From the IMG/VR virus record IMGVR_UViG_3300036873_000005, positions 1 to 29,184 of that record: 29,184 nt of DNA; one strand, 5' to 3'. Under the pieces are notes generated by a model that did no database searches, was not told the DNA's origin, and saw only the letters and a program-made list of their open reading frames with translations. Both the position numbers and the translations under genes were made by a program. This document shows, one piece after another, positions 791 to 24,848 of the stretch. Within the stretch, counting starts at the first letter, position 1; each line of letters starts with the position of its first letter. The stretch comes from a virus (Duplodnaviria; Caudoviricetes).

Positions 791-808
791 CTACCTAGTT
801 AGGTAAAC
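791..808 (-). promoter_or_regulatory. 18-bp junction element, copy 1 (GTTTACCTAACTAGGTAG)
   Basis: Exact match to four other copies; 1 nt after the upstream stop; 3' end forms AGGAG before the ATG at 780. Confidence 0.85.
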
Positions 809-809
809 C

Positions 810-962
810 TTAGTCGCAGTCGTCGAGCACTTCGCCAGCGTACTCTCGATCGTACCGTTTCATGCACGCGTCCGAGCAGAACCCGTCATCCGTGCGCACG
901 CTCGGATTGTTGACGAACTCCTCGAAGCACTCACGGCATGTGACCACCTTGCCGCCCGTCAT
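810..962 (-). CDS. Small Zn-finger protein, 50 aa (not in ORF track)
   Basis: MTGGKVVTCRECFEEF...FCSDACMKRY...; CxxC...CxxxC; ATGA overlap with the upstream gene. Confidence 0.7.
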   Translation of the reverse strand: MTGGKVVTCRECFEEFVNNPSVRTDDGFCSDACMKRYDREYAGEVLDDCD

Positions 963-1825
963 ACGTTCCCCCATTCTCGCCGTGCTCGGCGTATCCGCTC
1001 GATGATCTCCGGCTTGATCTCCGCTTCCATCGCCTTCGCCTTGGTCTCGGGGTCGATCGGGATTGGCTGCACCGTCCCGGCGCGGTACTCGATCTCGTCA
1101 AGGGTGTCGTTCCCCAGGCCCGAGCCCGTCCCGAGCGCTATTCTGCCTGTCATCGGGGTGTACGGTATCGTATCGCTGATCCACTTGATGTCGGCCAGCT
1201 TGATCGACTTCGGCTTAGGCTTGGACGCTTCCAGGTCCACGCGGAACTCCCCGCACCCGCATCGGCCTCGGTAGCTGTCCATACCGTCGTTGGTCCGACG
1301 CATCTCAGTGTAGCCGCACTCAGCCCAGCCCGCCGCTCGATCGCTCGCGTGCTGCTCTCGCGCGTGCCCACACTTGCACACCTGACCCACGACCGGCACG
1401 AAGATTCGACGCCTCGGGGCCAGCACGTCCCCGTTGCTCAGGACGTAGCCCGGCTCGTCGTCTACCGTCGTCCATTCCCACCGACCACCACCCTGTGTGA
1501 TCGTATACTCGTCTTCCCACTCACGGCGCGTGATCTCGGCGGCTTCGGTGTCGCTCTCGCATTCGAGGTAGGTCTCACGCTTGAACAGCATCGTCCCGGC
1601 GTCTCGGCTCGCGACGTACTGCCCGCCCACGCCACCGCAGAGACACGTGCTCGACTCTTCGTCGATCTGTACCACCACCCTATGCCGCGTGCGTCGGCGG
1701 AGCCCGCCCTTGCCGTCGTCCCAATACACCACGCCTCGGCAGGACGCGTGAGCCTGACGCTTCGCCCGCCACTCGGCCAGGAAACCCTTCGGCCCAATGT
1801 AGACGAGTCGGCTTCGGACGTACAT
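959..1825 (-). CDS. Hypothetical protein with CxCGHxxxxH Zn-binding module
   Basis: Likely start MYVRSRL; CKCGHAREQH...C...CGCGEF. Confidence 0.7.
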   Translation of the reverse strand: MYVRSRLVYIGPKGFLAEWRAKRQAHASCRGVVYWDDGKGGLRRRTRHRVVVQIDEESSTCLCGGVGGQYVASRDAGTMLFKRETYLECESDTEAAEITRREWEDEYTITQGGGRWEWTTVDDEPGYVLSNGDVLAPRRRIFVPVVGQVCKCGHAREQHASDRAAGWAECGYTEMRRTNDGMDSYRGRCGCGEFRVDLEASKPKPKSIKLADIKWISDTIPYTPMTGRIALGTGSGLGNDTLDEIEYRAGTVQPIPIDPETKAKAMEAEIKPEIIERIRRARREWGNV

Positions 1826-1827
1826 TG

Positions 1828-1947
1828 TCAGTCGGCGATGCTGACGGCAATGAGCCAAATGCCCAGGCCCGTCAGCCATCCGTACTGCACTCCGATCGCT
1901 AACGCTCCGATCGTGATGAAGATGAAGTTCAGCAAGGCATTCGACAT
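1828..1947 (-). CDS. Small membrane peptide, 39 aa (not in ORF track)
   Basis: MSNALLNFIFITIGALAIGVQYGWLTGLGIWLIAVSIAD; GGAGGT SD; fills the gap between its neighbours. Confidence 0.65.
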   Translation of the reverse strand: MSNALLNFIFITIGALAIGVQYGWLTGLGIWLIAVSIAD

Positions 1948-1950
1948 GAC

Positions 1951-2472
1951 TTACCTCCCAGGTATTGCGCTCGGCACCGGATCGTCGTCTTCCCGGTGTG
2001 TGATGTTCGGTCCGGCTTGCTGAGCCCGTTCAGCCTTCTGCGCTGCCAGCTTGATCTCTCGCGCCGTCATCAGCCGCTTCTTGCCCGCGACTTCGGACCG
2101 GCTTGCGATCGCGGGCATCGAGTCGGCCTTACCCACAGGCTCACCGTCATCGATCACGGCGGGACCGGTGTGGCTGTCATCGAGGTTGGCCGGATCAGTA
2201 GTCGTGTCTGCCTCTTCGATCGGCGGTAGGTCCGCTTGCTTGCGGGTCTCGTTCACCGTTCGGTAAGGTCGCTCCACGATCGTACGCTCAGCCTGCTTTT
2301 CTGTGCTGATCGTGAACTCGATCGCACCGCTCGACAGAACCTCGATCTTCACCACGTAGAACTTCGTGGCGCTCTGGCTTGTCAGCCACTCGGCCAGGTC
2401 AGCCTCTTCGACCGTATAGGCGCGAACCTCGGCCTTCAGCTTCGGCCCACTCTTCGGTTTCGGGTCGCTCAT
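1951..2472 (-). CDS. Hypothetical protein
   Basis: 173-aa ORF with AAGGAG SD. Confidence 0.7.
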   Translation of the reverse strand: MSDPKPKSGPKLKAEVRAYTVEEADLAEWLTSQSATKFYVVKIEVLSSGAIEFTISTEKQAERTIVERPYRTVNETRKQADLPPIEEADTTTDPANLDDSHTGPAVIDDGEPVGKADSMPAIASRSEVAGKKRLMTAREIKLAAQKAERAQQAGPNITHREDDDPVPSAIPGR

Positions 2473-2597
2473 TTCTTCTCCTTGGTCTTCAACGTGTCCA
2501 GGATGCGCGCTAGGCCATCGAGCGGATTGCAGCCGTTCGGGCAGTCACGCACACCCTGTTCAACGATCTTGTCGCACACGCTGCACTGCCAGGCCAT
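2469..2597 (-). CDS. Small Zn-ribbon protein, 42 aa (not in ORF track)
   Basis: MAWQCSVCDKIVEQGVRDCPNGCNPL...; TGATG and ATGA overlaps at the two ends. Confidence 0.65.
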   Translation of the reverse strand: MAWQCSVCDKIVEQGVRDCPNGCNPLDGLARILDTLKTKEKK

Positions 2598-2842
2598 CAG
2601 GCTATCGCTCGGTCGATCACTTCACGGTCCGGCTGCAAGGGCACGATGCCCAGGTCAGCGCACACGCACATGTACAGCGCGTCGGGCTGTCCGCCGTTGT
2701 CCCGCGTGTACTCTTCGGCATAGTCGGCGAAATAGGTGTCAACGTCTCTGTCTGAGTCCACGTTGAACTTCATGAACTTCGCCAGATTTGCGGGCTCTTT
2801 CAGGTGCGCGATCTGCCGCTCACGGCTGACGTACTGCATCAC
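2597..2842 (-). CDS. Hypothetical protein
   Basis: 81-aa ORF coupled to both neighbours. Confidence 0.65.
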   Translation of the reverse strand: MMQYVSRERQIAHLKEPANLAKFMKFNVDSDRDVDTYFADYAEEYTRDNGGQPDALYMCVCADLGIVPLQPDREVIDRAIA

Positions 2843-3144
2843 GCCTCACCGCCGTACTCGACGCCCTCGGCCTCGGGCTCGTCGTCGTCGATCACGTCGA
2901 ACTCGTCCTCGTCGTCTTCGTCGTCGTCGCGATCGCCGGAGTCTAAGTCCAGTTCATACTCCGCGTCGATCTCGTTCACGATCTGATCGCTCGGGTCGTT
3001 CTCGCCCTCGGTGAGGATGTCCCGAATCACGTCGGTGTCCGACACACCCAGGATAGCGGCGATGCGCTCAGCCGTGTCGTCGATACCCTTCACGCCCATC
3101 TTGAAGTCAGCGACCGCTTCGGTCACCTGTCCACGCTCTGTCAT
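2839..3144 (-). CDS. Highly acidic small protein (possible DNA mimic)
   Basis: Start MTERGQ with GGAGGG SD; about 38 of 101 residues are D/E. Confidence 0.7.
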   Translation of the reverse strand: MTERGQVTEAVADFKMGVKGIDDTAERIAAILGVSDTDVIRDILTEGENDPSDQIVNEIDAEYELDLDSGDRDDDEDDEDEFDVIDDDEPEAEGVEYGGEA

Positions 3145-3386
3145 ATCAGCCCTCCGCGTAGGTTTGCGCACCCCTGTTCGTGCTTGCCGTCGAGCCCATC
3201 ACACACCGAGCACTGAGTGCCGACGCCTTTCGCTGCTCGCTCTTCGGCCGTCATCTCGTCCCACTCCACCAGGCCCTCTTCGCCGTCTGCGGGCTCGTCT
3301 TCGCCCGCTCGTACGCGATTCTCGTGCGCGGCTCGGGCCAACTGCCGACGCGCCTCTTTCTCCATCTTTTCCCACCGGTTGGTCAT
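3141..3386 (-). CDS. Hypothetical protein with C-terminal CxxC...H...C motif
   Basis: CSVCDGLDGKHEQGC; SD from the 18-bp element. Confidence 0.65.
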   Translation of the reverse strand: MTNRWEKMEKEARRQLARAAHENRVRAGEDEPADGEEGLVEWDEMTAEERAAKGVGTQCSVCDGLDGKHEQGCANLRGGLI

Positions 3387-3398
3387 AGGCTGACCCTC

Positions 3399-3416
3399 CT
3401 ACCTAGTTAGGTAAAC
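3399..3416 (-). promoter_or_regulatory. 18-bp junction element, copy 2
   Basis: Exact copy; encodes the last codons VYLTR* of the upstream ORF; 3' end forms the AGGAGG SD. Confidence 0.85.
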
Positions 3417-3752
3417 GACAACGTCATCGTACGACATCACGCCGTCGTCACTCGTCAGCCCGACGTGCGCGATCTTCGGGTTGCCCTCGATCGCTACGAT
3501 CCGGGCCATCAGCGCGGCCCGGTTCGACTCGGTGAACATCTCGGGCATCAGGTCGCGGAACGCCAGCCCGTCGCCCTCCTCGAACTCCCACAGAGTCTTC
3601 GTCAGGAACTCGAACGCGTCGTCATGCTCTTCGGGGTACGCCAAGTCCGCGAGTGCCTGGTACACGATCGCCAGAATCAACATCTTCTCGCCACCGCTGT
3701 CGTCGGCTCGCTCACCTACTTGGAGCGGAGCCCGGCGCGTCCCGTTCGTCAC
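3399..3752 (-). CDS. Hypothetical phage protein
   Basis: 117-aa ORF, helical LAIVYQALADL segment; GTGA overlap at the start. Confidence 0.7.
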   Translation of the reverse strand: MTNGTRRAPLQVGERADDSGGEKMLILAIVYQALADLAYPEEHDDAFEFLTKTLWEFEEGDGLAFRDLMPEMFTESNRAALMARIVAIEGNPKIAHVGLTSDDGVMSYDDVVVYLTR

Positions 3753-4330
3753 TGGCTCGGCTCCGAACCACTCAACACCTGATTACTCAACGCCTGACGG
3801 GTGCTCGGCAGTTTCTCGGCAGTTACGGTGCTAGGTTGCTCTGTAGCTCTCGCCTCTAGTTCTGCCACCACCGTCCCCGCCGCGATGTTCCCTGTTACCG
3901 CCACCGCGACCACCGTAGCCTTGCGAGTCTGCACACGTTTCGGCTTGATCGTTCCCCGTGCTGCGATGGCTCTCCGCATCAGGTCGGCGAGTAGAACTAG
4001 CTCCTGCTCCGTTGCTACGGCTAGCATCTCTTGCCACTGCTCTTTCTTCCGCTCTACCGGCGAATCTAGAATCTTTTCGACCAATCTAGACTCGCCCGCG
4101 TTCAGCTTGCCGTCCTTGATCCGTGCCTTCAGAGCGTTTCTGAACTCTTCACCGGTCGTGATCTCCCTGATGAACTCCCTGAGGCTCTTCGCGTCCGGTT
4201 CCGTGACCGCTTCGGTTTGGGGGTTCTTCGGCTTGTTCTTCGAGCCCTTGACCCGTCCGCCTCGCTTCTTCTTGACCGGTTCCGTGACCGCTATGTTTCC
4301 GCTCAGTCCTACCGGTGTTTGCTCGCTCAT
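3749..4330 (-). CDS. Putative DNA-binding protein, possibly terminase small subunit-like
   Basis: KKRGGRVKGSKNK resembles the GGRxKGxxNK N-terminal motif of many small-terminase-like phage proteins; AAGGGAG SD before ATG 4330. Confidence 0.4.
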   Translation of the reverse strand: MSEQTPVGLSGNIAVTEPVKKKRGGRVKGSKNKPKNPQTEAVTEPDAKSLREFIREITTGEEFRNALKARIKDGKLNAGESRLVEKILDSPVERKKEQWQEMLAVATEQELVLLADLMRRAIAARGTIKPKRVQTRKATVVAVAVTGNIAAGTVVAELEARATEQPSTVTAEKLPSTRQALSNQVLSGSEPSQ

Positions 4331-4372
4331 GTCTGGCTCTCCCTTGGTAGTCTGTACCCGCATCGTGGGCAC

Positions 4373-4615
4373 CGCTTGATCTTCGTCTTCGCTCCCCGTG
4401 GTCGGCCGTGGTAGTTCCTTCGGGGGTCGTGTCCCCGCCTGAACGGTCGTCCGCCGCCGCCCCTTCTACTCAACATACGTTGAGCCCTTGTCGGGTCCTA
4501 GAACGGCCCAGGATCGCACCGGGCCAGTTCCCGGTACGGCTACAGCGACCCCCTTGCCGATCGCCCAGGCTTGCCCCGAATCCGCCCCGATTCGCCCCCT
4601 TCCGGAAGAGCACTC
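4373..4615. other. Longest non-coding gap, with tandem inverted repeats
   Basis: Minus-strand stems CGAATC/GATTCG, GCGATC/GGTCGC, CGTACCGGG/CCCGGTGCG, TCCTGG/CTAGGA, CTCAAC/GTTGAG. Confidence 0.5.
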
Positions 4616-5197
4616 TCAGGGCCATACGGCCAGGGCCTTCCGGGTAATCCCCCGAACCTCTTCCTCTGTCGCGGGCCGGGGTTCAGCGCTCACCCACCGA
4701 TCGCTCACCCGGTAATACACGTGCGCCCGGTCACTGCTCGCTCCTGCCGTCCAGGTCTCGATCAGGCTCACCGCGCCGTCACTTGGTCGGCTCTCGTGAA
4801 CCTCGTACTTGTTCTGTGCGTAGTCCTGCCCGCCCAGGAACATCGCCCGGTCTCGCTCTACCAGGTTGACAGGCACCGGCCCGCCGATCTCACAGCCCTT
4901 CGGCCCACAGACGATCTCCTGCTCGATGTACGGCTCACCGACGCCATCGGCCGGATCGACCACCCCGTACAGGATGTTCTCGATCTCACCGCTGATCACG
5001 TGGCTGATGAAGTTCCACGGGTGATCGTGGATCACCGTCACGTCCGGCACCCGGTGCTCGTGCGACCACACATGTAGCCTGAACCGGTTGTCGAACCTCA
5101 GGCGCAGCATCCCGAGCCCTTGCAGCGTCCAGCCCCGATAGACTGTCGCGTGTTCGAGGATGCCCTTGACCGTCGCTCTGATCGCGTCCTCGATCAT
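4616..5197 (-). CDS. Cupin-fold (cysteine dioxygenase-like) metalloprotein
   Basis: RLHVW...IHDHPWNFISHVISG...VHE, a cupin-type HxH...H arrangement. Confidence 0.55.
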   Translation of the reverse strand: MIEDAIRATVKGILEHATVYRGWTLQGLGMLRLRFDNRFRLHVWSHEHRVPDVTVIHDHPWNFISHVISGEIENILYGVVDPADGVGEPYIEQEIVCGPKGCEIGGPVPVNLVERDRAMFLGGQDYAQNKYEVHESRPSDGAVSLIETWTAGASSDRAHVYYRVSDRWVSAEPRPATEEEVRGITRKALAVWP

Positions 5198-5268
5198 GGC
5201 AGTAGCACGATGCGCTCGATCACCACGAGCGTCCAGATGAACAGGTTGAGCACGATTACTTGAATCAT
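5194..5268 (-). CDS. 24-aa hydrophobic micropeptide (not in ORF track)
   Basis: MIQVIVLNLFIWTLVVIERIVLLP; GAGGAG SD; ATGA overlaps at both ends. Confidence 0.6.
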   Translation of the reverse strand: MIQVIVLNLFIWTLVVIERIVLLP

Positions 5269-5987
5269 ACGATCTCCTCGTCCTCCCTTGGTGCACGTTG
5301 AGGTTTGTTGCGCTCGGCTCTTGTCTCCGCCATGTACCGCGCGTGCTCGTTCACGGTCGGGAACCTCGGCTTCGGCGGCTCCTTCGGCCGATCGATCGGG
5401 TCCAGCTTCGGCGCGTACTTCTTCGTGCTGACCGACGAGCCCAGCCTAATCTTCGGCTCGCTCAGCACTACGCCCGCGCCTTCGGGCACCGGATCGCCCG
5501 GTCGCCAGTTGTTTCCAAGTCCGCACCCGCAATCACCGGGCGAGCATACCGGCATGTGACCCACGATCGTCGGAATGGGCATGCTCGCCGTGTGCGATGT
5601 CTTGCCCTCCTGTCCTTCGTGCAGCCATGTCGTGGTCAGCATCGTGTCCTGTTCGTCCAGGAACACCATCTTGCCCGTCACCGCGACGTTGCACACCGGA
5701 CACCGGGGAGAGCGCGCGTCAGCGCTCGGGCCAGTCAGCGGCCGGAACGTGTAGCAGCCGCACCGGAAGCCTTCGCACGTGTTCGCGTTCCCGAGTCCGC
5801 GATGCGACGATGCCCAATGCCCGCATTCACACACCGAGTCATCGCGGTAGTTCTTGCCGTCGATCGACAAGATCACCGGACCAACGTACCGGCGTCCAGG
5901 CTCGCGGAACATCGAGTCAGGTGGTTTCACGGTGTTCCACTCTAACGGCGAGGCTAGCTCTGCCGCCAGCGAAGCGAATCCGGGCAT
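5265..5987 (-). CDS. Cys/His-rich hypothetical protein
   Basis: CECGHWASSH...C...CGCYTF, CPVC, CSPGDCGC. Confidence 0.7.
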   Translation of the reverse strand: MPGFASLAAELASPLEWNTVKPPDSMFREPGRRYVGPVILSIDGKNYRDDSVCECGHWASSHRGLGNANTCEGFRCGCYTFRPLTGPSADARSPRCPVCNVAVTGKMVFLDEQDTMLTTTWLHEGQEGKTSHTASMPIPTIVGHMPVCSPGDCGCGLGNNWRPGDPVPEGAGVVLSEPKIRLGSSVSTKKYAPKLDPIDRPKEPPKPRFPTVNEHARYMAETRAERNKPQRAPREDEEIV

Positions 5988-6571: not shown

Positions 6572-6572
6572 C

Positions 6573-8447: not shown

Positions 8448-8755
8448 TTCTCCGTGTAGCCCACCGGGCGCGAGCCTTCTTGAAACCGGTAGCGTACGCC
8501 GCAGTTCTCCATCGCCGCCACACCGAGCGCCGCCACCTTGCGCGTCGTGTTCAGAGCGAACTCAGTCGCGAACGGCTCTTCGCGCCGCGCCATCACGTGA
8601 ATGGCCTCTTCGACATAGTCCTTCATGTACACGAGCCATTCGAGAATGTTCTCGTGCCGCCCGGCACTCGCCGTCACGTCCGGCGTCCACTTCGAGTCCT
8701 GGTAAGCACGCTCGCCGTCCAGTGCTCCGTACACTTCCTGTCTCGTCGCTTTCAT
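8444..8755 (-). CDS. MazG-superfamily-like all-alpha protein (degenerate)
   Basis: Start MKATRQEV; ERAYQDSKW...H...EW...RKVAALGVAAME resembles phage all-alpha NTP-pyrophosphatase-like proteins. Confidence 0.55.
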   Translation of the reverse strand: MKATRQEVYGALDGERAYQDSKWTPDVTASAGRHENILEWLVYMKDYVEEAIHVMARREEPFATEFALNTTRKVAALGVAAMENCGVRYRFQEGSRPVGYTEK

Positions 8756-9408
8756 CGATTGTCCCCCTCCGCTCGAATGACGTTGCGCCTCGTTCTGTCC
8801 GCCAGCTTCTCGACGTTCCACGCCGCGATGTCGCTCAGCTTGATGCCCAGCGACGAGGCACAGAACGCGATCATCCGCACAACCTCGGCGAGCATCCGAG
8901 CCAACTCCAACTCCTGCTCGAACGTCAGCACGTCGGTCTGACCGTTGCGGTAGTACTTCTTCACCTTGTCCACCGTGCGCCCGACCTTCGCTGAGAGAGC
9001 CTGCGAGTAGTGCGTCACCGAGAACGTCGGCACACCGACGTGCTCCTGATAGTCGTCGAACGTGACAGAGAGCAGGTAATCGTACGGCTTCACGCCGATC
9101 TTGTAGAACGATCGGATCGCGTACCACAGCACGTCGCCCAATTCCTTGCCCATCTCGTGAATCGCGTCGAGTCCGGGCCACGAACGGAACGAGAAGTCGA
9201 TCACCTTCTCAGTGAACTCGCCCGTCTCACCCGCGAGCCCGAGCATGTAGTACCACAGCGGCGTCGAGCCCTTGCCGTAGCTTTCCAGGCCCGACTGATC
9301 AAACGCGGCGATCATCCGGCTGTAGTCGGCGAACTCGAACTTCGAGCGATCACTCGGGATGTACTTGTCAGCCTCGATCGCCTTGATCACAGTTCCAGTG
9401 TTCTCCAT
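8752..9408 (-). CDS. mazG: MazG-like nucleotide pyrophosphohydrolase with internal duplication
   Basis: LGLAGETGEFTEKV...KELGDVLWY; C-terminal NVEKLADR...IRAEGDNR; start MENTG with AGGAG SD. Confidence 0.85.
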   Translation of the reverse strand: MENTGTVIKAIEADKYIPSDRSKFEFADYSRMIAAFDQSGLESYGKGSTPLWYYMLGLAGETGEFTEKVIDFSFRSWPGLDAIHEMGKELGDVLWYAIRSFYKIGVKPYDYLLSVTFDDYQEHVGVPTFSVTHYSQALSAKVGRTVDKVKKYYRNGQTDVLTFEQELELARMLAEVVRMIAFCASSLGIKLSDIAAWNVEKLADRTRRNVIRAEGDNR

Positions 9409-9665
9409 TCGCTTTCTCCTTGGTAACGGTAGCGAACGGGTCCGCTCACCGTCACGAAAATGTGCGCGCCGAACTCGGGCTCGTGCTTGTACACGATCGT
9501 GGTGCGCGCGTCCCACTCAGCCTCAGCCACGCGGAGTCGCTTGTCCGCGAGGTTGTCGTCTCGAATGTGCGTCAGCGTTATCACCGGCTCCTCCGCCTTG
9601 AACTCACGGATGAAGTTGGCCCGGTGCGCGACCGTATCGACTTGGACTTGAATGCGAGCCATCAT
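9387..9665 (-). CDS. Hypothetical protein, 92 aa
   Basis: Start MMARIQ by ATGA overlap; GGAGGGG SD. Confidence 0.6.
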   Translation of the reverse strand: MMARIQVQVDTVAHRANFIREFKAEEPVITLTHIRDDNLADKRLRVAEAEWDARTTIVYKHEPEFGAHIFVTVSGPVRYRYQGESEWRTLEL

Positions 9666-9901
9666 CCCCTCCACACGCCGATAGCACTGATTACGAACCA
9701 CGCCGCGTTGAGCGCCAGCATCGGGTAGCTCTTCCGCTCCCAGGAGTGAAACCCCATCATCAGGGACGTGATCATCCCGATGCCAACGTACGGGACCTTG
9801 CCGATCACGCCCACCGAGAACGCGATGTACGTGGCGAGGATCAGCACCATCGCCGCGTGCCCGATGACTGTGCTCCACGTCTTGATTGGCTGCGACATCA
9901 C
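9662..9901 (-). CDS. Small 3-TM membrane protein (CBU_0592-like)
   Basis: Three hydrophobic helices; YPMLALNAAWFVISAIGVWR C-terminal pattern. Confidence 0.6.
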   Translation of the reverse strand: MMSQPIKTWSTVIGHAAMVLILATYIAFSVGVIGKVPYVGIGMITSLMMGFHSWERKSYPMLALNAAWFVISAIGVWRG

Positions 9902-11804: not shown

Positions 11805-11811
11805 GTAGTGT

Positions 11812-11868: not shown

Positions 11869-12588
11869 TTAAGGAGTCTGCGGGCCTCGATCCAGCTTCG
11901 TCGTGCTTGGGCGCGGGTCGCTGAGCGGACGCTCGAACGTGAACCCGTACCGGCTCATGCACTGCTTCAGCCACACGCTGTTGTGCACCACGCCGTAGTA
12001 GCTGTAGCTGAAGCTACCGTTCGTGTACAGCGTGCCCAACTCCACGTCGAGCCGCTGCGAGTCCCTGCACGCGCGGAACACGTCGTACGTGTACTCCTGC
12101 GCGGGGGTCAGGAAACGAGTGCCCTTGCGCTCACCCGGCTTCACGATGTCGCCGCGACCGGTTCCAGGGACGCTCACGCTCATGCCACCGTCACCACCGA
12201 CCGACATGGAGCCCGTCGAAGAGGATGAGCCGCCCTTGCCGCCGCCGTCGCCACCACGCCCACCACCATCGCCGCCATGTCCGCCGCCGTCACCGCCATG
12301 CCCACCGCCATTGTTCCCGCCACCGTTGCCGTTCCCGCCGCCGTTGTTGCCGCCATGCGAGCCCGTGTTCCCGGCGTTGGTCCCGTTGCTTCCTTGGTTC
12401 CCGCCGCCTTGATTGCCGACGCCGTTGCCGCTGTTGCCGGAGCCGCTGTTGCCAGCCCCGCCGCTGCCACCGACACCGTTCGAGGAACCGCTGTTACCGC
12501 CGCCGTTGCCGCCCTTCGCGGCAAACGACTCGGCAACAGGCGCGAACACCATCGCCACGATCGCCACCAGTCCGATCAGTCTCTTCAT
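11869..12588 (-). CDS. Secreted glycine-rich low-complexity protein
   Basis: Signal peptide MKRLIGLVAIVAMVFAPVAESFA; about 100-aa G/N/S tract; small C-terminal domain with two Cys. Confidence 0.8.
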   Translation of the reverse strand: MKRLIGLVAIVAMVFAPVAESFAAKGGNGGGNSGSSNGVGGSGGAGNSGSGNSGNGVGNQGGGNQGSNGTNAGNTGSHGGNNGGGNGNGGGNNGGGHGGDGGGHGGDGGGRGGDGGGKGGSSSSTGSMSVGGDGGMSVSVPGTGRGDIVKPGERKGTRFLTPAQEYTYDVFRACRDSQRLDVELGTLYTNGSFSYSYYGVVHNSVWLKQCMSRYGFTFERPLSDPRPSTTKLDRGPQTP

Positions 12589-12652: not shown

Positions 12653-12670
12653 CTACCTAGTTAGGTAAAC
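12653..12670 (-). promoter_or_regulatory. 18-bp junction element, copy 3
   Basis: Exact copy; supplies FT* and the stop codon of the SbcC-like gene. Confidence 0.85.
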
Positions 12671-18033: not shown

Positions 18034-18066
18034 GATCGTGACCTTTCTGCCCTTGCGGCTCTGCGC

Positions 18067-18573: not shown

Positions 18574-18579
18574 GTGCTC

Positions 18580-18597
18580 CTACCTAGTTAGGTAAAC
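18580..18597 (-). promoter_or_regulatory. 18-bp junction element, copy 4
   Basis: Exact copy, 3 nt after the polymerase stop; 3' end gives AGGAG ahead of ATG 18573. Confidence 0.85.
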
Positions 18598-18600
18598 TGT

Positions 18601-20340
18601 TCACCGCTTCGGCATCGGCGTGAGCCCAAACTCTTTCGCCACCAGATTGTAGTCGCACAGGTTCGCCATGTCCGGCCCTACCGACAGGTCAATCCGGTAC
18701 GGTACGTCAGCCTCTAGACGCCAGTCCAGAGGCAACGCGTGGCAACGTCTCCACAGGAGCATCATGGTCGGCTCGATATGGCCGGGCGCGCCATCAAACC
18801 ACCCCGAGTCGTGGACGGTGTTGTTGTGCCAGGCCCGGAGCGGCTTACCGCCCGGTCCTCGGCCTTCGTGCATCTGCCAGTCCGCTGCCTCGGGGAAGTG
18901 CACACCCTCTGCCTGCCACATGGAGGGCACCTGTAGCCCACCCATCGATTCGACCAGGCCCTCACCGTGGTACGCGAGCGCCAGCATCCAAAAGTTGTCC
19001 GTGGCGTTCATGCTCTGAGTCGGCGTGTTCGCCGCCACGTGGAACTGATGATTCAACTGCCGCTTCATCTCCTTCTCGTTCCGCCCATCGCCAGTGTCGA
19101 ACATGTAGCCGGGGAACTTCGGGTCCGAGCCCCACGCACCGACGTAGTCTTCGTCGAACGTCACGCCTTGCGGGAGAGGGATCGAGCGCCGTCGCCCGTA
19201 CGCATCCTCGCTGTAACCGATCCAATTCCCTGACTCCGCCGCGCGTCGGCCCAGCGTGATGATGTCGTAGCTGTACAGGTCCGTGAGTCCGGCGTATCCC
19301 TTGTTGAAGTTGTTATGCGCCTTCTGTGCCATGTCATCGTCGAGCCACAGCCGCGCCTTCTTCCAAATCGTGCCCTGCACCGTGCGCCACGTCGCACCGA
19401 AAATCTCGGCGAAGAACGTCTGCTTCCCGACCGCGTCGCGCTCGTACGAGCCTTTCTTGAACGTGCCGTCCGGCTTCTCATAGATCAGCGCTGCCGTATA
19501 TCCGTGCACGTCCTTACCCAGGCGAATGTAGTCCCACGTCGTACGGTCGGACTTCGGCACCCACCGATACAGGAGCACACCAGCCCGGATCGCAGCCTCG
19601 GCACCGCTGATGTCCCACCGGCCGCACCATCCGTGAACGCGGGGGTCCCAGCCGCCAAAGTTTCCCTTCTTCGGGTCCCACTCGCGTACGCGGAACGGAG
19701 CCACGCGCGGGACAATGCAGGACTTGATGCCGTCCGCTACGTCCTTGTCCGCGCGCTCGGCGATGCCGTGCACGGGCGGGTTGCTCGCGCTGATGCGGCT
19801 CGTGCGCAATGCCCAATTGTACGAAGCATGAATCGCACCATCCGCTCGGCACAGGTTCTCGAATTTGTCCAAGTACTTCGTGATCGCCCCGGCCAACGAT
19901 CGCACCTTAAGGATCGCACGCACTACCTCGATGTCCTTGCCGCTCTTGTTGCTCGGAGTCGGGACATTGGGCACCGAGAGCGACGCGAACCACGAGAGCA
20001 CTTCCGCGCTCGTCGAGTAGTCGCCCTTCTGCCCCTGCATCATCTCCTGACGCATCTCCCAGGATTTCATCTGCTCGGGGAACGTCAGGTTGAGCCCGGC
20101 CTTCGTAAAGAGAAAGTCCGCCACCTTCTTCGCATTGATACCGTGCTTCTCGGCGGAGAACTTCAGCTTGCCGCCACTCACGTCTGAGACCAGCTTCTCT
20201 TCGCGCGCCAACTGATCAGCGAAACGCGTTCGCACTTCACGCACGCGCTCCTTGTCGATTGGCAGTCCTGCCCGGCGTATCGCCGAGATGGCGACATTGG
20301 CCGGGACCAGGATTTGGCGATAGTAGGTTTCCAGGTTCAC
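18601..20340 (-). CDS. Family A DNA polymerase, polymerase domain only (split gene, C-terminal part)
   Basis: GLPID; IHASYN...TSRISASNP; motif A DISGAE; DVH..TA; motif B R...KQTFFAEIFG; GRRR; NTPTQ; motif C VHDS. Confidence 0.92.
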   Translation of the reverse strand: MNLETYYRQILVPANVAISAIRRAGLPIDKERVREVRTRFADQLAREEKLVSDVSGGKLKFSAEKHGINAKKVADFLFTKAGLNLTFPEQMKSWEMRQEMMQGQKGDYSTSAEVLSWFASLSVPNVPTPSNKSGKDIEVVRAILKVRSLAGAITKYLDKFENLCRADGAIHASYNWALRTSRISASNPPVHGIAERADKDVADGIKSCIVPRVAPFRVREWDPKKGNFGGWDPRVHGWCGRWDISGAEAAIRAGVLLYRWVPKSDRTTWDYIRLGKDVHGYTAALIYEKPDGTFKKGSYERDAVGKQTFFAEIFGATWRTVQGTIWKKARLWLDDDMAQKAHNNFNKGYAGLTDLYSYDIITLGRRAAESGNWIGYSEDAYGRRRSIPLPQGVTFDEDYVGAWGSDPKFPGYMFDTGDGRNEKEMKRQLNHQFHVAANTPTQSMNATDNFWMLALAYHGEGLVESMGGLQVPSMWQAEGVHFPEAADWQMHEGRGPGGKPLRAWHNNTVHDSGWFDGAPGHIEPTMMLLWRRCHALPLDWRLEADVPYRIDLSVGPDMANLCDYNLVAKEFGLTPMPKR

Positions 20341-20864
20341 TTGCCGAATTTCTCCGCGAGGTACTTCTTCACGTCCGTGTTCATCCTCGGGTAATCGGGC
20401 CTTACCTCGTCACTCTTCAGGTCGCGCTGCTTCGCCTCGTTCGCATCGAGCACCGGACGATGCGCTGCCAGGAGTGCGTCAACCAGCTTCATCTGCTCAG
20501 CCGCCGTGCCGAAAGCCGGAACGTCGAGGATCAGATGGTCGCAGGACCAGGCGTCAAGGATGATTGCCACGCACGCACTGATATGCGCTACGTGCGGCAT
20601 GCCGTCTTCCTCGTCGAACCACTGCCCGTCCTTCACCCCGTTGGTGTGTCTCTCGATCGCTTCGAGGTACACGGACAGACGCACGGCCTTCATGCGCCAG
20701 TTCATGCCGTCGTAGCCCCACACGTCGTACAACTCCCCGTACTTCGAGCGGCCGGTCGCCATCACGCCCGCCGTCCATATCGCGAGCGCCGGGGGAACGA
20801 GACGCAGCGGAGTCTTCTTGATGCCAAGTATGTCCTTGGGGTTTGTCTTGTCAGCCACGGTCAC
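20337..20864 (-). CDS. dATP/dGTP diphosphohydrolase domain protein (DUF5664-like)
   Basis: NPKD..GIKK.PLRLVP...VM..G..KYG...NWR...Y.EAIERH...G...DEEDG.PHVAH..AC; start uncertain (20858, 20864 or 20873). Confidence 0.85.
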   Translation of the reverse strand: MTVADKTNPKDILGIKKTPLRLVPPALAIWTAGVMATGRSKYGELYDVWGYDGMNWRMKAVRLSVYLEAIERHTNGVKDGQWFDEEDGMPHVAHISACVAIILDAWSCDHLILDVPAFGTAAEQMKLVDALLAAHRPVLDANEAKQRDLKSDEVRPDYPRMNTDVKKYLAEKFGK

Positions 20865-22099
20865 ACGCTCCATTTCAGGTAGTCTGCTCGACTGATGCGG
20901 TCGTGCAGAAGGTCGCATAGCTCGAACGTGTAGCAGGCGTCACCGATCGCACCATCAGCGACTTCTGCCAGCGATGCGTCACGCATCTTCGACTTGTCGT
21001 ACCCAACCCAATACTGCGGTCGGCCCAGCACGTCAACAACGGCTTTCTCCAAACGGAGCGAGTCGTGAGTACCGTCTCCGAGCGCAATCATGGCAAGCAT
21101 GCCATCACCCGCCCGGTTGCACACACCATCCGCTGCCAGCTTCGTGTACGTTACGCCCTCTTCGTCGTAGTGCCCGCTGAACGTCTCCTTCTCGGCCTCG
21201 CTCGCGAAGACCGGCGTGAACAACTCACTGGCAATCACGAGCCCGTCGCCTTCGTTGTAGTCGATCAGGTCCACATACGCGCCCTCGTTCACCGCCCAGG
21301 AGAACCCGATACCGCGCAACCGAAAGTCCGGATGGCATGGATCGGTCGCCACGTCGCGACGGCTCGGGAACTCCTTGGCGTCGTATGCCTCGATGTCGAA
21401 TGCCCACGGTCCCGGATGCGCGGCAAGCCGCGCCAGGAACTCGCGAGCGTCGAGCGGGTTCGCGTACACCTGAGACTTAATCGTCCCGAGCGGTGCTTCC
21501 TGCATACTGCTCGACATACGAGCGATGTCCGCAAAGAACTCCGCACGCCGCGCTTCGGGGTTACGGTCGGCGAGGATGTCACGCGGGTGACGCGCGACGA
21601 AGCACTTGCGACCGTTCTTGTCTTCGATCCAGAGCCCCCGGTACGCGCCCACCTTCGGCTTGCGGCCTTTCTCCGAACGCCAGAACGCACCGAGCGCACG
21701 ATCCCCCAGGAGCAGGATCGGAGCCGTGGACTGTGCTAGGTCAGGCTTCAAGTACCGTAGGCACCGCTTCTCACCGCGCTGATGGATCGCATGCCCCAGG
21801 TCATCGTTGTACGCGCGGCACCGCGAGAGGTTCATGTACTGTACCGCTTCAAGGTCCCAGCCCGAGTCAGTCAATGCGGCGTCGATCATGTCCTTCACGT
21901 CGCCCGCAAATGGCTTCTCGATGAACTCCGCTGCCTCGTCCGGCGCATCACCGATCACCACGAGCGCGGGGGATGACAGGAGCAACGGAACGATCTTACA
22001 GCCTGCTCGTTCGTACTCGCAGCCGACGCACGGCGAGACCGGTTCCTTGACCTTCTTCGGTTTTGGAACGAAAGGACGATTTTTCATCGCGTCGGCCAC
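20861..22099 (-). CDS. Uracil-DNA glycosylase (family 4)-like domain fused to a 3'-5' proofreading exonuclease (split PolA, N-terminal part)
   Basis: CxxC, IGDAP...PFAG, NLSRCR, C..YL, LLG..A, RG.W, HP; then ExoI FDIEA, ExoII HYD, ExoIII DACYT. Confidence 0.85.
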   Translation of the reverse strand: MADAMKNRPFVPKPKKVKEPVSPCVGCEYERAGCKIVPLLLSSPALVVIGDAPDEAAEFIEKPFAGDVKDMIDAALTDSGWDLEAVQYMNLSRCRAYNDDLGHAIHQRGEKRCLRYLKPDLAQSTAPILLLGDRALGAFWRSEKGRKPKVGAYRGLWIEDKNGRKCFVARHPRDILADRNPEARRAEFFADIARMSSSMQEAPLGTIKSQVYANPLDAREFLARLAAHPGPWAFDIEAYDAKEFPSRRDVATDPCHPDFRLRGIGFSWAVNEGAYVDLIDYNEGDGLVIASELFTPVFASEAEKETFSGHYDEEGVTYTKLAADGVCNRAGDGMLAMIALGDGTHDSLRLEKAVVDVLGRPQYWVGYDKSKMRDASLAEVADGAIGDACYTFELCDLLHDRISRADYLKWSV

Positions 22100-22860
22100 T
22101 CCGATCGAGGACGCAGTTTAGCCTTTGCGTTCTCGGGGATGTCACCCACGAACCGAACGAACACGTGCTTGGTCTCAACTTTCACGATGCACCAGCCCTC
22201 AGCTTTCGCTTGTGCGAAGTTCAAGCCTTTGCCTCGAAACAACTTCGACTGTCCTGGTGCGCGATCGCTCGTCACCACGCCCGGCTCAACCTCTCGCCAC
22301 GTACCGGGCGGGAGCGTCGAATACCGCCACCGGCCCCCGCCTCGACCCACATTGCGGCCCAGGTAGTGCCACCGACTGTCCGCCTTGTACACCTGACCAC
22401 TCTCATCCGCGTACGGATCAGCATAGGCCACGAAAACCGTCCAGCCGTACTTCGCCGATGCTTGCTCGATCGAGTCCGTTATCGCCTTATGCGCGGTGTT
22501 GTCCGGCGCGTGTCGTCGGCTCGCTCCACGTTCGAGACAAATCATCTTCTTGTACTCCACACCCAGGTACGTGTGCAGCTTGCCGGGCATGATGCCAAAG
22601 CACTCGGCGTTAAGTAGCTCGTCGTCGAGGAACGTGCCGTACACCGCTTTCGGCATTCCCAGCTTGCCCAGGTATTCATATCGCTCGATGAACTCCCGTG
22701 CCTGCTCTATGGTGATCTCCCGTGTCACGAGCCGTTTGCGCTCGCTCGCCGGGTACTTCTCTCGGTTCAGGTCCGTGCTCATACGCTTCTCGAATTGCGT
22801 AGGCATAGCACCCCGACGCCATACGGGCGCGGGAGTGGACTTGGAGGGACGGTCGGTCAT
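22084..22860 (-). CDS. Mom-family (GNAT-fold) DNA adenine-modification enzyme
   Basis: AREFIERYEYLG...YG.F..DEL...FG...LERG...PDNT...AYADP...E.G.VYKA..W.YLG. Confidence 0.75.
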   Translation of the reverse strand: MTDRPSKSTPAPVWRRGAMPTQFEKRMSTDLNREKYPASERKRLVTREITIEQAREFIERYEYLGKLGMPKAVYGTFLDDELLNAECFGIMPGKLHTYLGVEYKKMICLERGASRRHAPDNTAHKAITDSIEQASAKYGWTVFVAYADPYADESGQVYKADSRWHYLGRNVGRGGGRWRYSTLPPGTWREVEPGVVTSDRAPGQSKLFRGKGLNFAQAKAEGWCIVKVETKHVFVRFVGDIPENAKAKLRPRSEWPTR

Positions 22861-22921
22861 TCCGCCCTCCGCAAGCATGGTGTGCCTGTGTGCACCTTAC
22901 ACCACTCCAAGTCAGTCACTC

Positions 22922-23857
22922 CTACAGGTTTCCGATCTGCGTCAGATAGATGCCCGCCAACATCTCGATCCGCTTGGCGCGGCTTAACTCCTTGATCCTC
23001 TCCAACGTTGTAGCACGCGCTTTCGTTTCCTTACCGATCGTGGCAAGAGCCTTCTTCGAGAAAGCACGCATGCCGCGCGTCCGCTTTACCGACCCCATCG
23101 CAACAATCTCAACGATGGTCGGTCGGCGGGTCTTAAACGCCACGAGCAGTTCCAGCAAGAACTCCCGCGCCTTGTCGCGGTTGCTTCGATTGGCTCGATC
23201 CTTCGTACCGAGAGCACTCGGCTGATCGAGTGCTTCCAGCACCTTCGAGATGTCCGTGCCCACGGCTTGCGCGTCAGTGAACATCTCAGCGAACGCTTTC
23301 AGGATTGCCGTGGCCGACACGCTGGTCTCACCGGTAGGCTTCCAGAACAGATTCTTCGTCAGCTTCTCGTCGTTTACGTCGCGGAGAAACGCCGCACTCG
23401 CGGCTGAGCACGAACGGATACGAATATCCGACGTGACCGCTCGGACTCGATTGAGCAAGTAGAACAGGTTGGCCTCTAGCTCGACATCATCGAACTCGAA
23501 CAGACGCACGGACATCACCGAGCGAGTCTGGACTGCCGCTCGCCAGGTCTGCCCGCCGTCGATAATTGCGATGTCTCCGTTCTTGCGAAGCACCGCAGAC
23601 TTGACGGCTGGAATGATGCCGCCCGCTCTGAGGGTAGCGGCGATCGACTCAACCTCGCTCGTGGCTCCCCTCTGGTAGTGCTCCACGTCGATGATCACCC
23701 GGTGTCTGCCATTGACGGTCTTGCCGTCGCGCACAATCACCGCGCCATCGCCGTCAGGCATGAGCGCAACACCGTCTGTGTACTGCTTCAACCGTCGATC
23801 CGAAAACACCGCGTACGGGTCCAGATACTTCTCGTCATCCTGCTCTACTGGCTTCAT
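22922..23857 (-). CDS. ParB/Srx-like N-terminal domain protein (DGQHR/DUF6551-like)
   Basis: YQR...IA...R.NG...IIDGGQT..AA...EANLF..LNR. Confidence 0.65.
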   Translation of the reverse strand: MKPVEQDDEKYLDPYAVFSDRRLKQYTDGVALMPDGDGAVIVRDGKTVNGRHRVIIDVEHYQRGATSEVESIAATLRAGGIIPAVKSAVLRKNGDIAIIDGGQTWRAAVQTRSVMSVRLFEFDDVELEANLFYLLNRVRAVTSDIRIRSCSAASAAFLRDVNDEKLTKNLFWKPTGETSVSATAILKAFAEMFTDAQAVGTDISKVLEALDQPSALGTKDRANRSNRDKAREFLLELLVAFKTRRPTIVEIVAMGSVKRTRGMRAFSKKALATIGKETKARATTLERIKELSRAKRIEMLAGIYLTQIGNL

Positions 23858-23944
23858 GATGCTCTCCTTTTTCTATGCCCCAAGTTCCCGTCCAGGGCGG
23901 AACGTCATCGGCAACCGGCCGACATTCGGTGGGATACTACCCGT
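23858..23944 (-). promoter_or_regulatory. Structured 5' UTR motif, copy A
   Basis: Minus strand ACGTTCC-G-CCCTGG-AC-GGGAAC-TT-GGGGCA just upstream of AAGGAG; shared with 28835-28873. Confidence 0.55.
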
Positions 23945-24790
23945 TTATGGTGTCTGACTTCCCGAACGGCCGAACGGACGCCACGAGGCGCGCTTCACCT
24001 TGATCTCCCCGCCCGACAGACGGTCGCTCGTCTGCCCGACGTGCTTGTACATCACCGGAGCCGGAGCGGGAGCCACGTGCGACGCCACCACGATCGGCGG
24101 AGCAGTCTCCTTGATCACCCGCGATACCTTCGGCTCCGACTTCGGAACCATCGAGACGGGTCCGCCGCGATCGAACGCCGTGACGAACATCATGTACTTC
24201 AGCGCGACTTCTTCGGCATACCGGTCATTCGGCCGGTGCTCACGGGCGGTCATCGGGCCACGGTTGTAGCCGCGCAACGCAACCTCGTTCACGCCGCCGA
24301 ACTCGTCCACTCGATCCTTCAGGAACCGGATGCCGATTCGCAGGTTGTACTTCGGTACACCGAGTGTGCCCAGGCTACCCTTGCTCGGAGCCTCGAACTT
24401 GATGTCGAGAGCCTTCGCCACCTTCGCCCCGGTATCAGGCATCACTTGCATCAGACCGATCTCACCCGCCTTGCCGATCGCGCGGGGGTTGAATTGCGAC
24501 TCCTTGTCGATCAGAGCCATCACGAGCCGGAAGTCCAGGCCCGCCGTCTTGCTCTCGGTGAGCAGCACACGCGGGAAGTCCACGAAGTCCCGGTACGGCG
24601 CGTCCGGGTTCCGCTTCAGCACGATCTCCATGATCTTCGCTTCGACCGCATCCGACACCTTGACCCGCTCGGCACCACGTGCCGCCTCTGCGCGCTCGCC
24701 AGCGTTGAACGCGTACTGTGCCACCGCCGCCAACGCCACTAGACCGAGCGCCGCTCCGATACCGACTGCTAGATTTTTCAGTCTGCTCAT
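23945..24790 (-). CDS. Lytic transglycosylase (SLT domain) with N-terminal TM/SAR-like anchor
   Basis: ALIDKESQFNPRA...GEIGLMQVMP.T...NLRIG..FL...GYNRGP; Ala/Gly-rich N-terminal helix. Confidence 0.9.
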   Translation of the reverse strand: MSRLKNLAVGIGAALGLVALAAVAQYAFNAGERAEAARGAERVKVSDAVEAKIMEIVLKRNPDAPYRDFVDFPRVLLTESKTAGLDFRLVMALIDKESQFNPRAIGKAGEIGLMQVMPDTGAKVAKALDIKFEAPSKGSLGTLGVPKYNLRIGIRFLKDRVDEFGGVNEVALRGYNRGPMTAREHRPNDRYAEEVALKYMMFVTAFDRGGPVSMVPKSEPKVSRVIKETAPPIVVASHVAPAPAPVMYKHVGQTSDRLSGGEIKVKRASWRPFGRSGSQTP

Positions 24791-24830
24791 AACGAACCTC
24801 CTTTGTTCGGGTTGGTAGACTCCGCCTTCC

Positions 24831-24848
24831 CTACCTAGTTAGGTAAAC
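24831..24848 (-). promoter_or_regulatory. 18-bp junction element, copy 5
   Basis: Exact copy; supplies LPN* and the stop codon of the sigma-like gene. Confidence 0.85.

What the first reader, a model, noticed from the sequence alone, without database searches (positions are those of the whole stretch)
791..24848. Five exact, co-oriented 18-bp elements at gene junctions: dyad, stops in all three frames, and a built-in SD
Seen: GTTTACCTAACTAGGTAG (minus strand) occurs unchanged at 791-808, 3399-3416, 12653-12670, 18580-18597 and 24831-24848. It always points in the direction of transcription and always sits at a gene end. It is AT-rich (7/18 GC) and holds the dyad TACCTA-AC-TAGGTA plus an asymmetric GTT tail. 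It has a stop in each frame, and three upstream genes end inside it in three different frames (VYLTR*, FT*, LPN*), so it is conserved as nucleic acid rather than as protein. In three copies its 3' end forms the AGGAG SD of the next gene. The copies bound functional modules (recombination block, polymerase/modification block). Known analogues: mycobacteriophage L5 stoperators, cluster K start-associated sequences and N4 hairpin promoters. Inference: a genome-wide operator, phage promoter or RNA-processing/translation signal.
Basis: partly seen in the sequence, partly recalled or inferred. Interest (0 to 1): 0.85.

Follow-up and report, generated by a model that had tools for sequence, protein, structure and literature searches.

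The report
Phage-specific promoter for non-virion genes
An 18-base word is repeated 14 times, always in the reading direction and never inside the virion-gene block, in an uncultured ~98-kb wetland phage; relatives carry their own versions at matching gene junctions, so it is likely a phage-specific promoter, probably read by the small sigma-like protein that the phage encodes.

Summary
In detail: five exact copies, none in 100 shuffles. The window is part of a ~97.5-kb tailed phage with 14 copies, all on the coding strand and none in the 38-kb virion block. A colinear complete relative has 13 copies of its own version (13/18 identical), 8 at tightly matching junctions. Two distant relatives carry a -10-like GATATA(A/G) at some of the same junctions, with leaderless ATGs about 7 nt behind it. 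A second motif, an extended -10 (TGGTACAAT), precedes virion genes and the sigma-like gene. That protein folds as sigma domain 2 alone. Best reading: a middle-type promoter (about 0.7), likely read by the phage sigma (about 0.5 overall). The three-frame stops are not conserved. The dyad may mask the ribosome site on read-through RNA, but support is weak. No integrase, repressor or RNA polymerase was detected; no RNA data exist. Four variant copies in a satellite-like island may be promoter hijacking. The scan had noted similar designs in other phages, not this motif.

The parts
24831..24848 (-). Class A element at the end of the sigma-like gene, ahead of the SLT / ParB-like / Mom / UDG-polymerase block
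   Evidence: matching element in G006 at 64056, and GATATA motifs at G008 31332 and G007 40246
18580..18597 (-). Class A element after the PolA gene; its AGGAG is the SD of the 168-aa gene leading the SSB/RecA/SbcCD block
   Evidence: motif within -3 to +10 nt of the PolA match end in all three relatives
12653..12670 (-). Class A element overlapping the SbcC stop, ahead of the endonuclease VII / MazG / RNA ligase block
   Evidence: G006 copy 1 nt after the SbcC match
3399..3416 (-). Class A element after the putative small-terminase cassette; supplies the SD of the 81-aa gene
   Evidence: G006 copy at 88118 overlaps the end of a DUF5681 gene
791..808 (-). Class A element supplying the SD of the 139-aa gene
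24835..25347 (-). 170-aa sigma-like protein, sigma domain 2 only (residues about 13-120); candidate reader of class A; its stop lies inside the element
   Evidence: Atlas lead Sigma70_r2; AlphaFold pLDDT 72; VIA-align top 13 rows all sigma factors, best Z 8.8, rmsd 2.8, 80-84 aligned; Foldseek no hit at E<=0.001
25411..25422 (-). Class B motif TGGTACAATAGA: an extended -10 (TGn-TACAAT) promoter-like site upstream of the sigma-like gene; 6 more copies precede terminase, portal, head and tail genes elsewhere in the phage

Best explanation
The 18-mer is likely a phage-specific, -35-less promoter for non-virion (middle-type) genes, probably read by host RNA polymerase carrying the phage's sigma-2-only protein. 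SHOWN: 14 co-oriented copies at gene junctions outside the virion block; a lock-step sequence change at matching junctions in a relative; a -10-like heptamer at some of the same junctions in two more distant relatives; a sigma-domain-2 fold for ORF 24835-25347. INFERRED: positions 4-9 (TACCTA) are the -10 hexamer with A5 as the -11 A; positions 10-15 are the discriminator; RNA starts at about T16-G19, so the SD (or, for the helicase, the ATG) sits at the very 5' end. INFERRED cascade: a host sigma70 promoter after the primase gene starts the early block; the sigma-like protein then switches on replication, recombination and nucleotide-metabolism genes and the non-virion islands behind terminase, portal and lysis genes; extended -10 class B sites serve virion genes. 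SPECULATIVE add-on (about 0.3): on read-through RNA the element folds a -5 to -7 kcal/mol hairpin over the start of the SD, so only RNA begun inside it would be translated well. Promoter function alone about 0.7; promoter read by this sigma-like protein about 0.5.
For: 14 of 14 copies are on the coding strand in 97,553 non-redundant bases, none in the 38-kb virion block; 11 of 14 lie 0-16 nt before a start codon. G006 has 13 of 13 on the coding strand, 13/18 identical to the window motif, and 8 of the 14 sites match a junction tightly. G008 has GATATAA 10 times on the coding strand and 0 on the other; G007 has GATATA[AG] 7 and 0; simulations gave means of 0.5 and 0.13. These lie before the helicase, behind the sigma domain and after PolA. 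In one register the window and G006 motifs each match G008's TGATATAA at 5 of 8; 3 of 7 G007 sites have AG at 17-18; two G008 sites have an ATG at position 16 opening ORFs of 185 and 153 aa; the G007 match to the 185-aa ORF spans its whole length. The window phage's helicase ATG abuts the element at position 19 behind an in-frame stop. The sigma-like proteins group as the motifs do: 41-42% identity within pairs, 18-30% across. Sigma-like identity between the window and G006 is 31% against 53-77% for replication proteins. Island copies keep positions 4-13 and AG at 17-18 while 14-16 vary. Precedents: phiEco32 gp36 (PMC12276001, passages); P23-45 extended -10 middle/late promoters read by host RNAP (PMC5758890, passages); Microbacterium cluster EC motif with a phage sigma (PMC7302621, section 12).
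Against: No transcript ends or binding data. The hexamer TACCTA lacks the -7 T and does not resemble TATAAT; the cross-phage register was set by eye and the G007/G008 patterns were chosen after seeing the data. Exact conservation over 18 bp is longer than a sigma-2 domain alone is expected to read (own knowledge). The motif directly upstream of the sigma-like gene is class B, not A, in both phages, which fits self-activation through B as proposed for phiEco32/7-11 (PMC4331800, passages). If host sigma reads B, late timing of virion genes is unexplained. Sigma-motif covariation rests on four related genomes, so kinship alone could give it. The window/G006 proteins have lost the QEG/QDG signature seen in G007/G008. 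The fold match (Z 8.8) is below the tool's own bar for helical bundles. Two of 14 sites have no matching G006 copy and four match only loosely. SD masking is small: unpaired probability 0.39 native versus 0.47 shuffled, and G007, with no such dyad, shows a similar gap.
Confidence: 0.5

Rival explanations
1. Class A is a middle promoter, but another phage factor (an unrecognised activator or second specificity factor) reads it; the sigma-2-only protein instead reads the class B extended -10 sites for late genes and itself, like T4 gp55.
For: B lies directly upstream of the sigma-like gene in both phages and upstream of terminase, portal, head and tail genes. gp55 is among the fold matches (7d7d_F, Z 6.8). 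G007/G008 GATATAA resembles B as much as A. Many small ORFs shared by the window phage and G006 have no family.
Against: B stays near the host consensus (TACAAT/TAAAAT/TATAAT with -7 T) in the window phage, G006, G011, L192 and one G008 site, while the sigma-like DNA-reading helix differs strongly between the window phage and G006. The motif that changes with it is A.
Confidence: 0.2
2. Class A is the operator or stoperator of a dimeric phage repressor that silences non-virion genes, with sites and repressor changing together as in cluster A mycobacteriophages.
For: Exact, co-oriented intergenic copies overlapping SDs; a 6-bp-arm dyad in both phages (about 1% of shuffles each); concerted change between relatives.
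Against: No tyrosine integrase (PF00589) or HTH_3 in 5 of 5 records, including complete G006. The dyad centre and spacer differ between the phages. Island variants break the right arm. No sigma70 -35/-10 promoter next to any copy for it to block. Distant relatives have a non-palindromic -10-like word at matching junctions. An unrecognisable repressor is not excluded.
Confidence: 0.13
3. Class A acts only as RNA: a hairpin or protein-binding site that controls translation or processing at gene junctions (SAS-like).
For: It overlaps or abuts the SD in most copies and folds a 7-bp (window) or 6-bp (G006) stem over the AG(G). The orthologous copy inside the early block has the weakest hairpin among near-exact copies in both phages (-3.8 and -1.2 kcal/mol).
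Against: Folding is barely better than shuffles (z -0.9 to -1.9 in the window, -2.1 for one G006 site). Stem and loop sequences are not shared between the phages. Unpaired position 1 (window) and 3-5 (G006) are still conserved. Three of 14 copies lie 37-64 nt from a start codon. No Rfam match.
Confidence: 0.1
4. The site is read by a host regulator or alternative sigma factor, and the two phage versions reflect different hosts.
For: Four copies also occur in a chromosomal-looking island next to a bacterial ABC substrate-binding gene.
Against: One scan of 185,579 species genomes with a 21-letter pattern gave a single isolated hit and no regulon. The host may be missing from that set and the pattern was strict.
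Confidence: 0.05
5. Recombination or insertion scar, or an assembly artefact.
For: Three upstream ORFs, including the sigma-like one, end inside a copy.
Against: Junction positions are kept across phages while the sequence changed in concert; flanks are unrelated; contigs of two further runs span three copies with no difference or joint there.
Confidence: 0.02

Closest known systems
18-bp repeated motif of Microbacterium cluster EC (and EI) phages (PMC7302621; section 12 and passages read)
   Same: 18 bp, 12 co-oriented copies in small intergenic gaps upstream of the RBS, mostly at non-structural genes including those between terminase and portal; lytic phage, all genes on one strand, encodes a sigma factor; function untested.
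   Different: Unrelated sequence. The EC motif lies 21-30 bp before the start codon and is degenerate; here it is nearly invariant and usually runs into the SD.
phiEco32 gp36 / phage 7-11 sigma promoters (PMC12276001, PMC4331800; passages read)
   Same: Phage-encoded sigma with host core RNAP reads a phage-specific motif after an early sigma70 phase.
   Different: gp36 has a C-terminal domain contacting the -35 region, a 6-9-bp motif, and serves middle and late genes. Here the protein is sigma-2 only, the motif is 18 bp, and virion genes carry a separate host-like extended -10.
T4 gp55 late promoters (TATAAATA; PMC3014915 passages; fold row 7d7d_F)
   Same: Small phage sigma-like factor and a promoter without a -35 element.
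   Different: gp55 drives late genes from a TATA-like 8-mer; here the candidate target is non-virion genes and the hexamer is not TATAAT-like.
T4 e/soc/49/I-TevI promoter-in-hairpin leaders (PMC3014915, section 29 read)
   Same: A promoter within the 5' arm of a hairpin that can cover the SD on read-through RNA.
   Different: T4 cases are gene-specific and stronger; here one weak 21-nt design would be repeated genome-wide, and the computed masking is marginal.
Start-associated sequences of cluster K mycobacteriophages (PMC3203893; passages read)
   Same: 11-19 co-oriented copies restricted to non-structural genes, containing AGGAG close to start codons.
   Different: SAS is 13 bp, non-palindromic and centred on the RBS; here 16 conserved bases lie upstream of the SD and relatives link them to a -10-like word.
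P23-45 extended -10 middle/late promoters (PMC5758890; passages read)
   Same: Model for class B: TG-type promoters without -35, read by host RNAP-sigmaA.
   Different: P23-45 early genes use a phage RNAP; none was detected here, and no gp39/gp76-like switch was identified.

Membership tests
Phage-sigma-dependent promoter (phiEco32 gp36 / T4 gp55 kind) | Phage encodes a sigma homologue | tested here: met
   Top 13 VIA-align rows are sigma factors, Z 7.2-8.8, residues 13-120; Atlas Sigma70_r2 lead; G007 homologue hits a PHROG sigma family at E 0.0035. No Pfam or PHROG hit for the window protein itself.
Phage-sigma-dependent promoter (phiEco32 gp36 / T4 gp55 kind) | Co-oriented conserved motif upstream of one gene class | tested here: met
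   14 of 14 and 13 of 13 copies on the coding strand, none in the virion block.
Phage-sigma-dependent promoter (phiEco32 gp36 / T4 gp55 kind) | -10-like element at the right distance from the start site | tested here: inconclusive
   Register inferred from relatives' GATATA(A/G), AG at 17-18 and leaderless ATGs at 16-19; hexamer lacks -7 T.
Phage-sigma-dependent promoter (phiEco32 gp36 / T4 gp55 kind) | Mapped RNA starts that depend on the phage sigma | not testable with these tools
   No RNA holder listed.
L5-type stoperator / repressor operator | Many short co-oriented intergenic sites | tested here: met
L5-type stoperator / repressor operator | Temperate phage with integrase and repressor | tested here: inconclusive
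   No PF00589 or PF01381 match in 5 of 5 records including complete G006; other integrase or repressor folds were covered only by Pfam/PHROG scans of selected ORFs.
Cluster K SAS | Non-structural genes only, contains AGGAG, close to the start codon | tested here: met
   11 of 14 copies lie 0-16 nt before a start; AGGAG in 6 of 14.
Cluster K SAS | 13-bp GGGATAGGAGCCC, non-palindromic | tested here: not met
   Different sequence with a dyad.
Microbacterium cluster EC 18-bp motif | Consensus TAGaCTATaGGTgTaAgC, 21-30 bp before the start | tested here: not met
   Sequence and spacing differ; architecture and sigma gene are alike.
T7-like or N4 virion RNAP promoter | Phage-encoded RNA polymerase | tested here: inconclusive
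   No RNAP family among 50 + 86 phage ORFs scanned; catalytic-motif scan gave only the PolA HDS and scattered unconvincing matches. A very divergent enzyme is not excluded.
T7-like or N4 virion RNAP promoter | Conserved hairpin stem and loop (N4) | tested here: not met
   Stem position and loop differ between the window phage and G006.
T4 e-type promoter-in-hairpin leader | Read-through RNA folds over the SD more than chance | tested here: inconclusive
   Native below shuffled mean at 10 of 14 and 10 of 13 sites, but 6 of 7 in G007 too; z -0.9 to -2.1.
Intrinsic terminator | GC-rich stem followed by a U tract | tested here: not met
   AU-rich stem followed by purines in all copies.

The most novel reading that the evidence does not exclude
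This phage group uses a minimal sigma-2-only factor for its middle genes, and factor and promoter have drifted together from a 7-bp GATATA(A/G) box into mutually orthogonal 18-bp modules that fuse promoter, SD and an SD-masking hairpin. A satellite-like island (L031/L034) has copied one phage's module four times to switch itself on only when that helper infects.
Probability: 0.2. Interest if true: 0.72.

Novelty: new variant of a known kind. Interest (0 to 1): 0.48.

Why it matters
Dispersed, co-oriented motifs of unknown function are reported in several phage groups (cluster K SAS, Microbacterium EC/EI/EF). Here four related genomes give a series that ties such a motif to a -10-like word and to a candidate reader, which makes a direct test possible: two sigma-like proteins crossed with two promoter versions. 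If confirmed, it would add a sigma-2-only factor acting on middle rather than late genes, a natural pair of orthogonal short promoters, and possibly a satellite that senses its helper through the helper's promoter. The general kind, a phage sigma with its own promoters, is well known.

Tried and rejected
RNA evidence: no RNA holder listed among 6 runs, all wetland DNA; this is no evidence either way. Five of 7 metagenome hits were in 21-30% GC repetitive DNA and were set aside as chance. The single genome hit (Novosphingobium) has one copy only. G011 (partial, 69% GC) shows class-B-like sites but no class A word; it may lack the region. No further relatives with DNA context for the sigma-like protein or PolA, so covariation stays at four genomes; homologues P0002-P0007 have no DNA here. 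Foldseek and PDB sequence searches gave no significant hit for the sigma-like protein. No Rfam match in the window, L023 or L034; no tRNAs in five phage stretches. The host could not be assigned. Literature: the 12-letter core occurs only in two unrelated human-biology papers (listing only); searches for phiC31 promoters, satellite activation by a helper sigma, and leaderless phage-sigma promoters gave nothing usable (listings only). Supplements were not read; the EC motif alignments (S10 Fig of PMC7302621) may bear on the comparison. No complex prediction was run because the host polymerase is unknown. Rejected: three-frame stop as function, ParB as reader, terminator, N4 hairpin promoter, scar.


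Full report
Observation. The 18-mer is present exactly five times on the minus strand at the stated coordinates, with no near copy and none in 100 shuffles. All genes considered here run on that strand. Each copy overlaps or directly follows a stop codon, and three supply AGGAG to the next gene. The window encodes PolA, UDG-domain, Mom, SSB, RecA, SbcCD, endonuclease VII, MazG and RNA ligase proteins; the held record is the window alone.

Whole phage. An exact scan of viral contigs found the word in six records; five were fetched whole. Four pieces overlap at 99-100% identity and tile a circle of about 97,553 non-redundant bases. It holds 14 copies: 11 exact, 2 differing at position 18, and 1 with three differences, all on the coding strand. 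They precede the helicase, the zinc-finger/AAA block, SLT/polymerase, SSB/RecA/SbcCD, dCMP deaminase, ThyX and exonuclease blocks and small unknown ORFs. None lies in the 38-kb stretch from the first head-accessory gene to the last gene before the helicase. Several follow a virion gene directly (terminase, portal cassette, end of the tail block). Eleven of 14 lie 0-16 nt before a start codon; before the helicase the ATG follows at once, behind an in-frame TAG, so that mRNA would be almost leaderless.

Close relative. G006 (101,821 bp, terminal repeats, colinear, mostly 50-84% amino-acid identity) has no match within 3 mismatches but carries GTTGATCCTACTAAGTAG 13 times, all on the coding strand (9 exact, 4 with one change). 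It is 13/18 identical to the window motif. Eight of the 14 window-phage sites have a G006 copy within 140 nt after the upstream orthologue or 50 nt before the downstream one; four match loosely and two not at all. Five positions therefore changed in every copy together, as expected if a phage-encoded reader changed specificity. G006's version has stops in two frames only, and its dyad is centred 2.5 nt further downstream.

Second motif. Unbiased word counting found a second class in both phages: TGGTACAATAGA (7 sites within 2 mismatches) and GTGGTAAAATAAAA (8 sites). These are extended -10 promoters in form (TGn-TAnAAT, by established knowledge of sigma70). They precede terminase (with an ATG 6 nt behind the hexamer), portal, head and tail genes and the sigma-like gene (window 25411-25422). 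A single host-type -35/-10 promoter candidate lies after the primase gene in the window phage, G006 and G011 (read; only G011's passed my scan threshold). Three promoter-like classes thus map onto early, non-virion and virion genes.

Distant relatives. G008 and G007 (about 35-55% identity in replication proteins) lack class A, but G008 has GATATAA 10 times and G007 GATATA[AG] 7 times, all on the coding strand, against simulated means of 0.5 and 0.13 (patterns chosen after looking at the data). They lie before the helicase, behind the sigma domain and after PolA; at PolA the motif starts within -3 to +10 nt of the match end in all three relatives. After the sigma gene, G007 and the window even share the downstream leader word CCCGAACAAAGGAG. 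Two G007 copies lie before portal or in the head region, so its motif is not confined to non-virion genes. With GATATA set on positions 4-9, the window and G006 motifs each match TGATATAA at 5 of 8. Three of 7 G007 sites show AG at 17-18, and two G008 sites have an ATG at position 16 opening 185- and 153-aa ORFs. This places a -10-like hexamer at 4-9, an A at -11 and the RNA start at about 16-19. The register is my inference.

Candidate reader. ORF 24835-25347 has no Pfam or PHROG hit, and only seven proteins at E<=1e-10, itself included, among 1.84 billion representatives. Its model (pLDDT 72) matches sigma domain 2: the top 13 of 50 listed VIA-align rows are sigma factors (best Z 8.8, rmsd 2.8), though Foldseek was not significant and Z is modest for a helical domain. 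There is no region 4, which fits a promoter without -35. Homologues occur in G006, G007 and G008. Over the core helices, identities are 41% (window-G006), 42% (G007-G008) and 18-30% across, the same split as the motifs. The protein is 31% identical between the window phage and G006 against 53-77% for nine replication proteins; for G007-G008 the figures are 32% against 40-60%. Four related genomes cannot separate coevolution from kinship. The main counter-argument is that class B, not A, sits directly before the sigma gene; the paper on phages 7-11 and phiEco32 describes sigma genes preceded by their own promoters (PMC4331800, passages). If host sigma reads B, as in P23-45 (PMC5758890, passages), how virion genes are delayed is unexplained.

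The dyad. As RNA, both versions fold a stem over the AG(G) that begins the SD (-5.0 to -7.1 kcal/mol in most copies), which recalls T4 e/soc/I-TevI leaders (PMC3014915, section 29). A 6-bp arm arises in about 1% of shuffles of each motif. The orthologous copy within the early block is weakened in both phages (-3.8 and -1.2). Against this, z-scores are only -0.9 to -2.1, and shuffling positions 1-14 raises SD accessibility only from 0.39 to 0.47 (window phage) and 0.20 to 0.34 (G006), with a like gap in G007 (0.28 to 0.45). I rate this add-on at about 0.3.

Operator rival. No tyrosine integrase or HTH_3 domain was found in five records including complete G006, no sigma70 promoter lies beside a copy, and the dyad geometry is not conserved. 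An unrecognisable repressor remains possible.

Island. One metagenome locus (L031 and L034, identical over 3,428 bp, 61% GC) has one exact and three variant copies within 370 bp on one strand. They lie ahead of a basic 61-aa ORF, a DNA methyltransferase, an excisionase-like HTH and a replication-initiator HTH, next to an ABC substrate-binding gene. The variants keep TACCTAACTA and AG at 17-18 and break the dyad. This looks like a satellite-type element borrowing the helper's promoter, but it is one 4-kb locus with no integrase or host in view. A strict scan of 185,579 species genomes showed no host regulon.

Comparison and verdict. The closest described case is the untested 18-bp motif of sigma-encoding Microbacterium cluster EC phages (PMC7302621, section 12); cluster K SAS share the restriction to non-structural genes (PMC3203893, passages). 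It works like a phage-sigma promoter of the phiEco32 kind (PMC12276001, passages), but membership is unproven without RNA ends. The motif itself was not found in print (library limits apply). Verdict: real, most likely a phage-specific middle-type promoter (about 0.7), read by the sigma-2-only protein (about 0.5 overall); a new variant of a known kind; interest 0.48.

Noticed in passing
window 25411-25422 (-); G001 5553, 13793, 20031, 35940, 38169; G005 22466: Second motif class TGGTACAATAGA, an extended -10 before virion genes and the sigma-like gene; how a host-like promoter is kept late is unexplained.
   Followed up: partly
L034 1233-1601 (= L031): Satellite-like island (methyltransferase, excisionase-like HTH, replication-initiator HTH) with four class A variants downstream of a GC-rich stem with a T run.
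   Followed up: partly
L023 (G003 29930-30390, minus); G006 53930-54240: About 400-nt purine-skewed leader without a convincing ORF after the candidate early promoter; no Rfam match in L023; possible non-coding RNA.
   Followed up: partly
window 18601-22099: DNA polymerase A is split: a 412-aa UDG-domain protein and a 579-aa polymerase, separated by a dATP/dGTP diphosphohydrolase gene; a Mom-like gene lies upstream, hinting at modified DNA.
   Followed up: no
G005 35228; G006 49126: Helicase orthologues both have unusual starts: an ATG abutting the element in the window phage, an apparent CTG start behind an SD in G006.
   Followed up: partly
G008 30917-31870; G007 39620-41041: In the distant relatives the sigma ORF runs in frame into a Lys/Ala-rich histone-like protein, with a GATATA motif at the join, so one frame may give two products.
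   Followed up: no
G008 21289-25200: Six repeats of a roughly 60-nt cassette (GCAGAGGGAC...GGTAATGC...GTCCGGTCCCAA) between early genes.
   Followed up: no
G001 25142-36900: Large head-region proteins with 2H phosphoesterase, histidine phosphatase, PI3/4-kinase-like and XkdF protease domains; possibly virion-delivered enzymes.
   Followed up: no
window 11869-12588 (-): 239-aa Gly/Asn-rich protein with a signal-peptide-like start, first gene behind the 12653 copy, absent from G006.
   Followed up: no
window 4348-4359 (-): GGGTACAGACTA, a weak class-B-like site before the putative small terminase; G006 has a full class B site at the matching place.
   Followed up: no
L127 (IMGVR_UViG_ locus, 58% GC): Single TTTACCTAACTA directly before AGGAGG and an ATG in another phage.
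   Followed up: no
G006 8451-9689 and 81539-82906: G006 carries IMP dehydrogenase/GMP reductase and RtcB genes not detected in the window phage.
   Followed up: no
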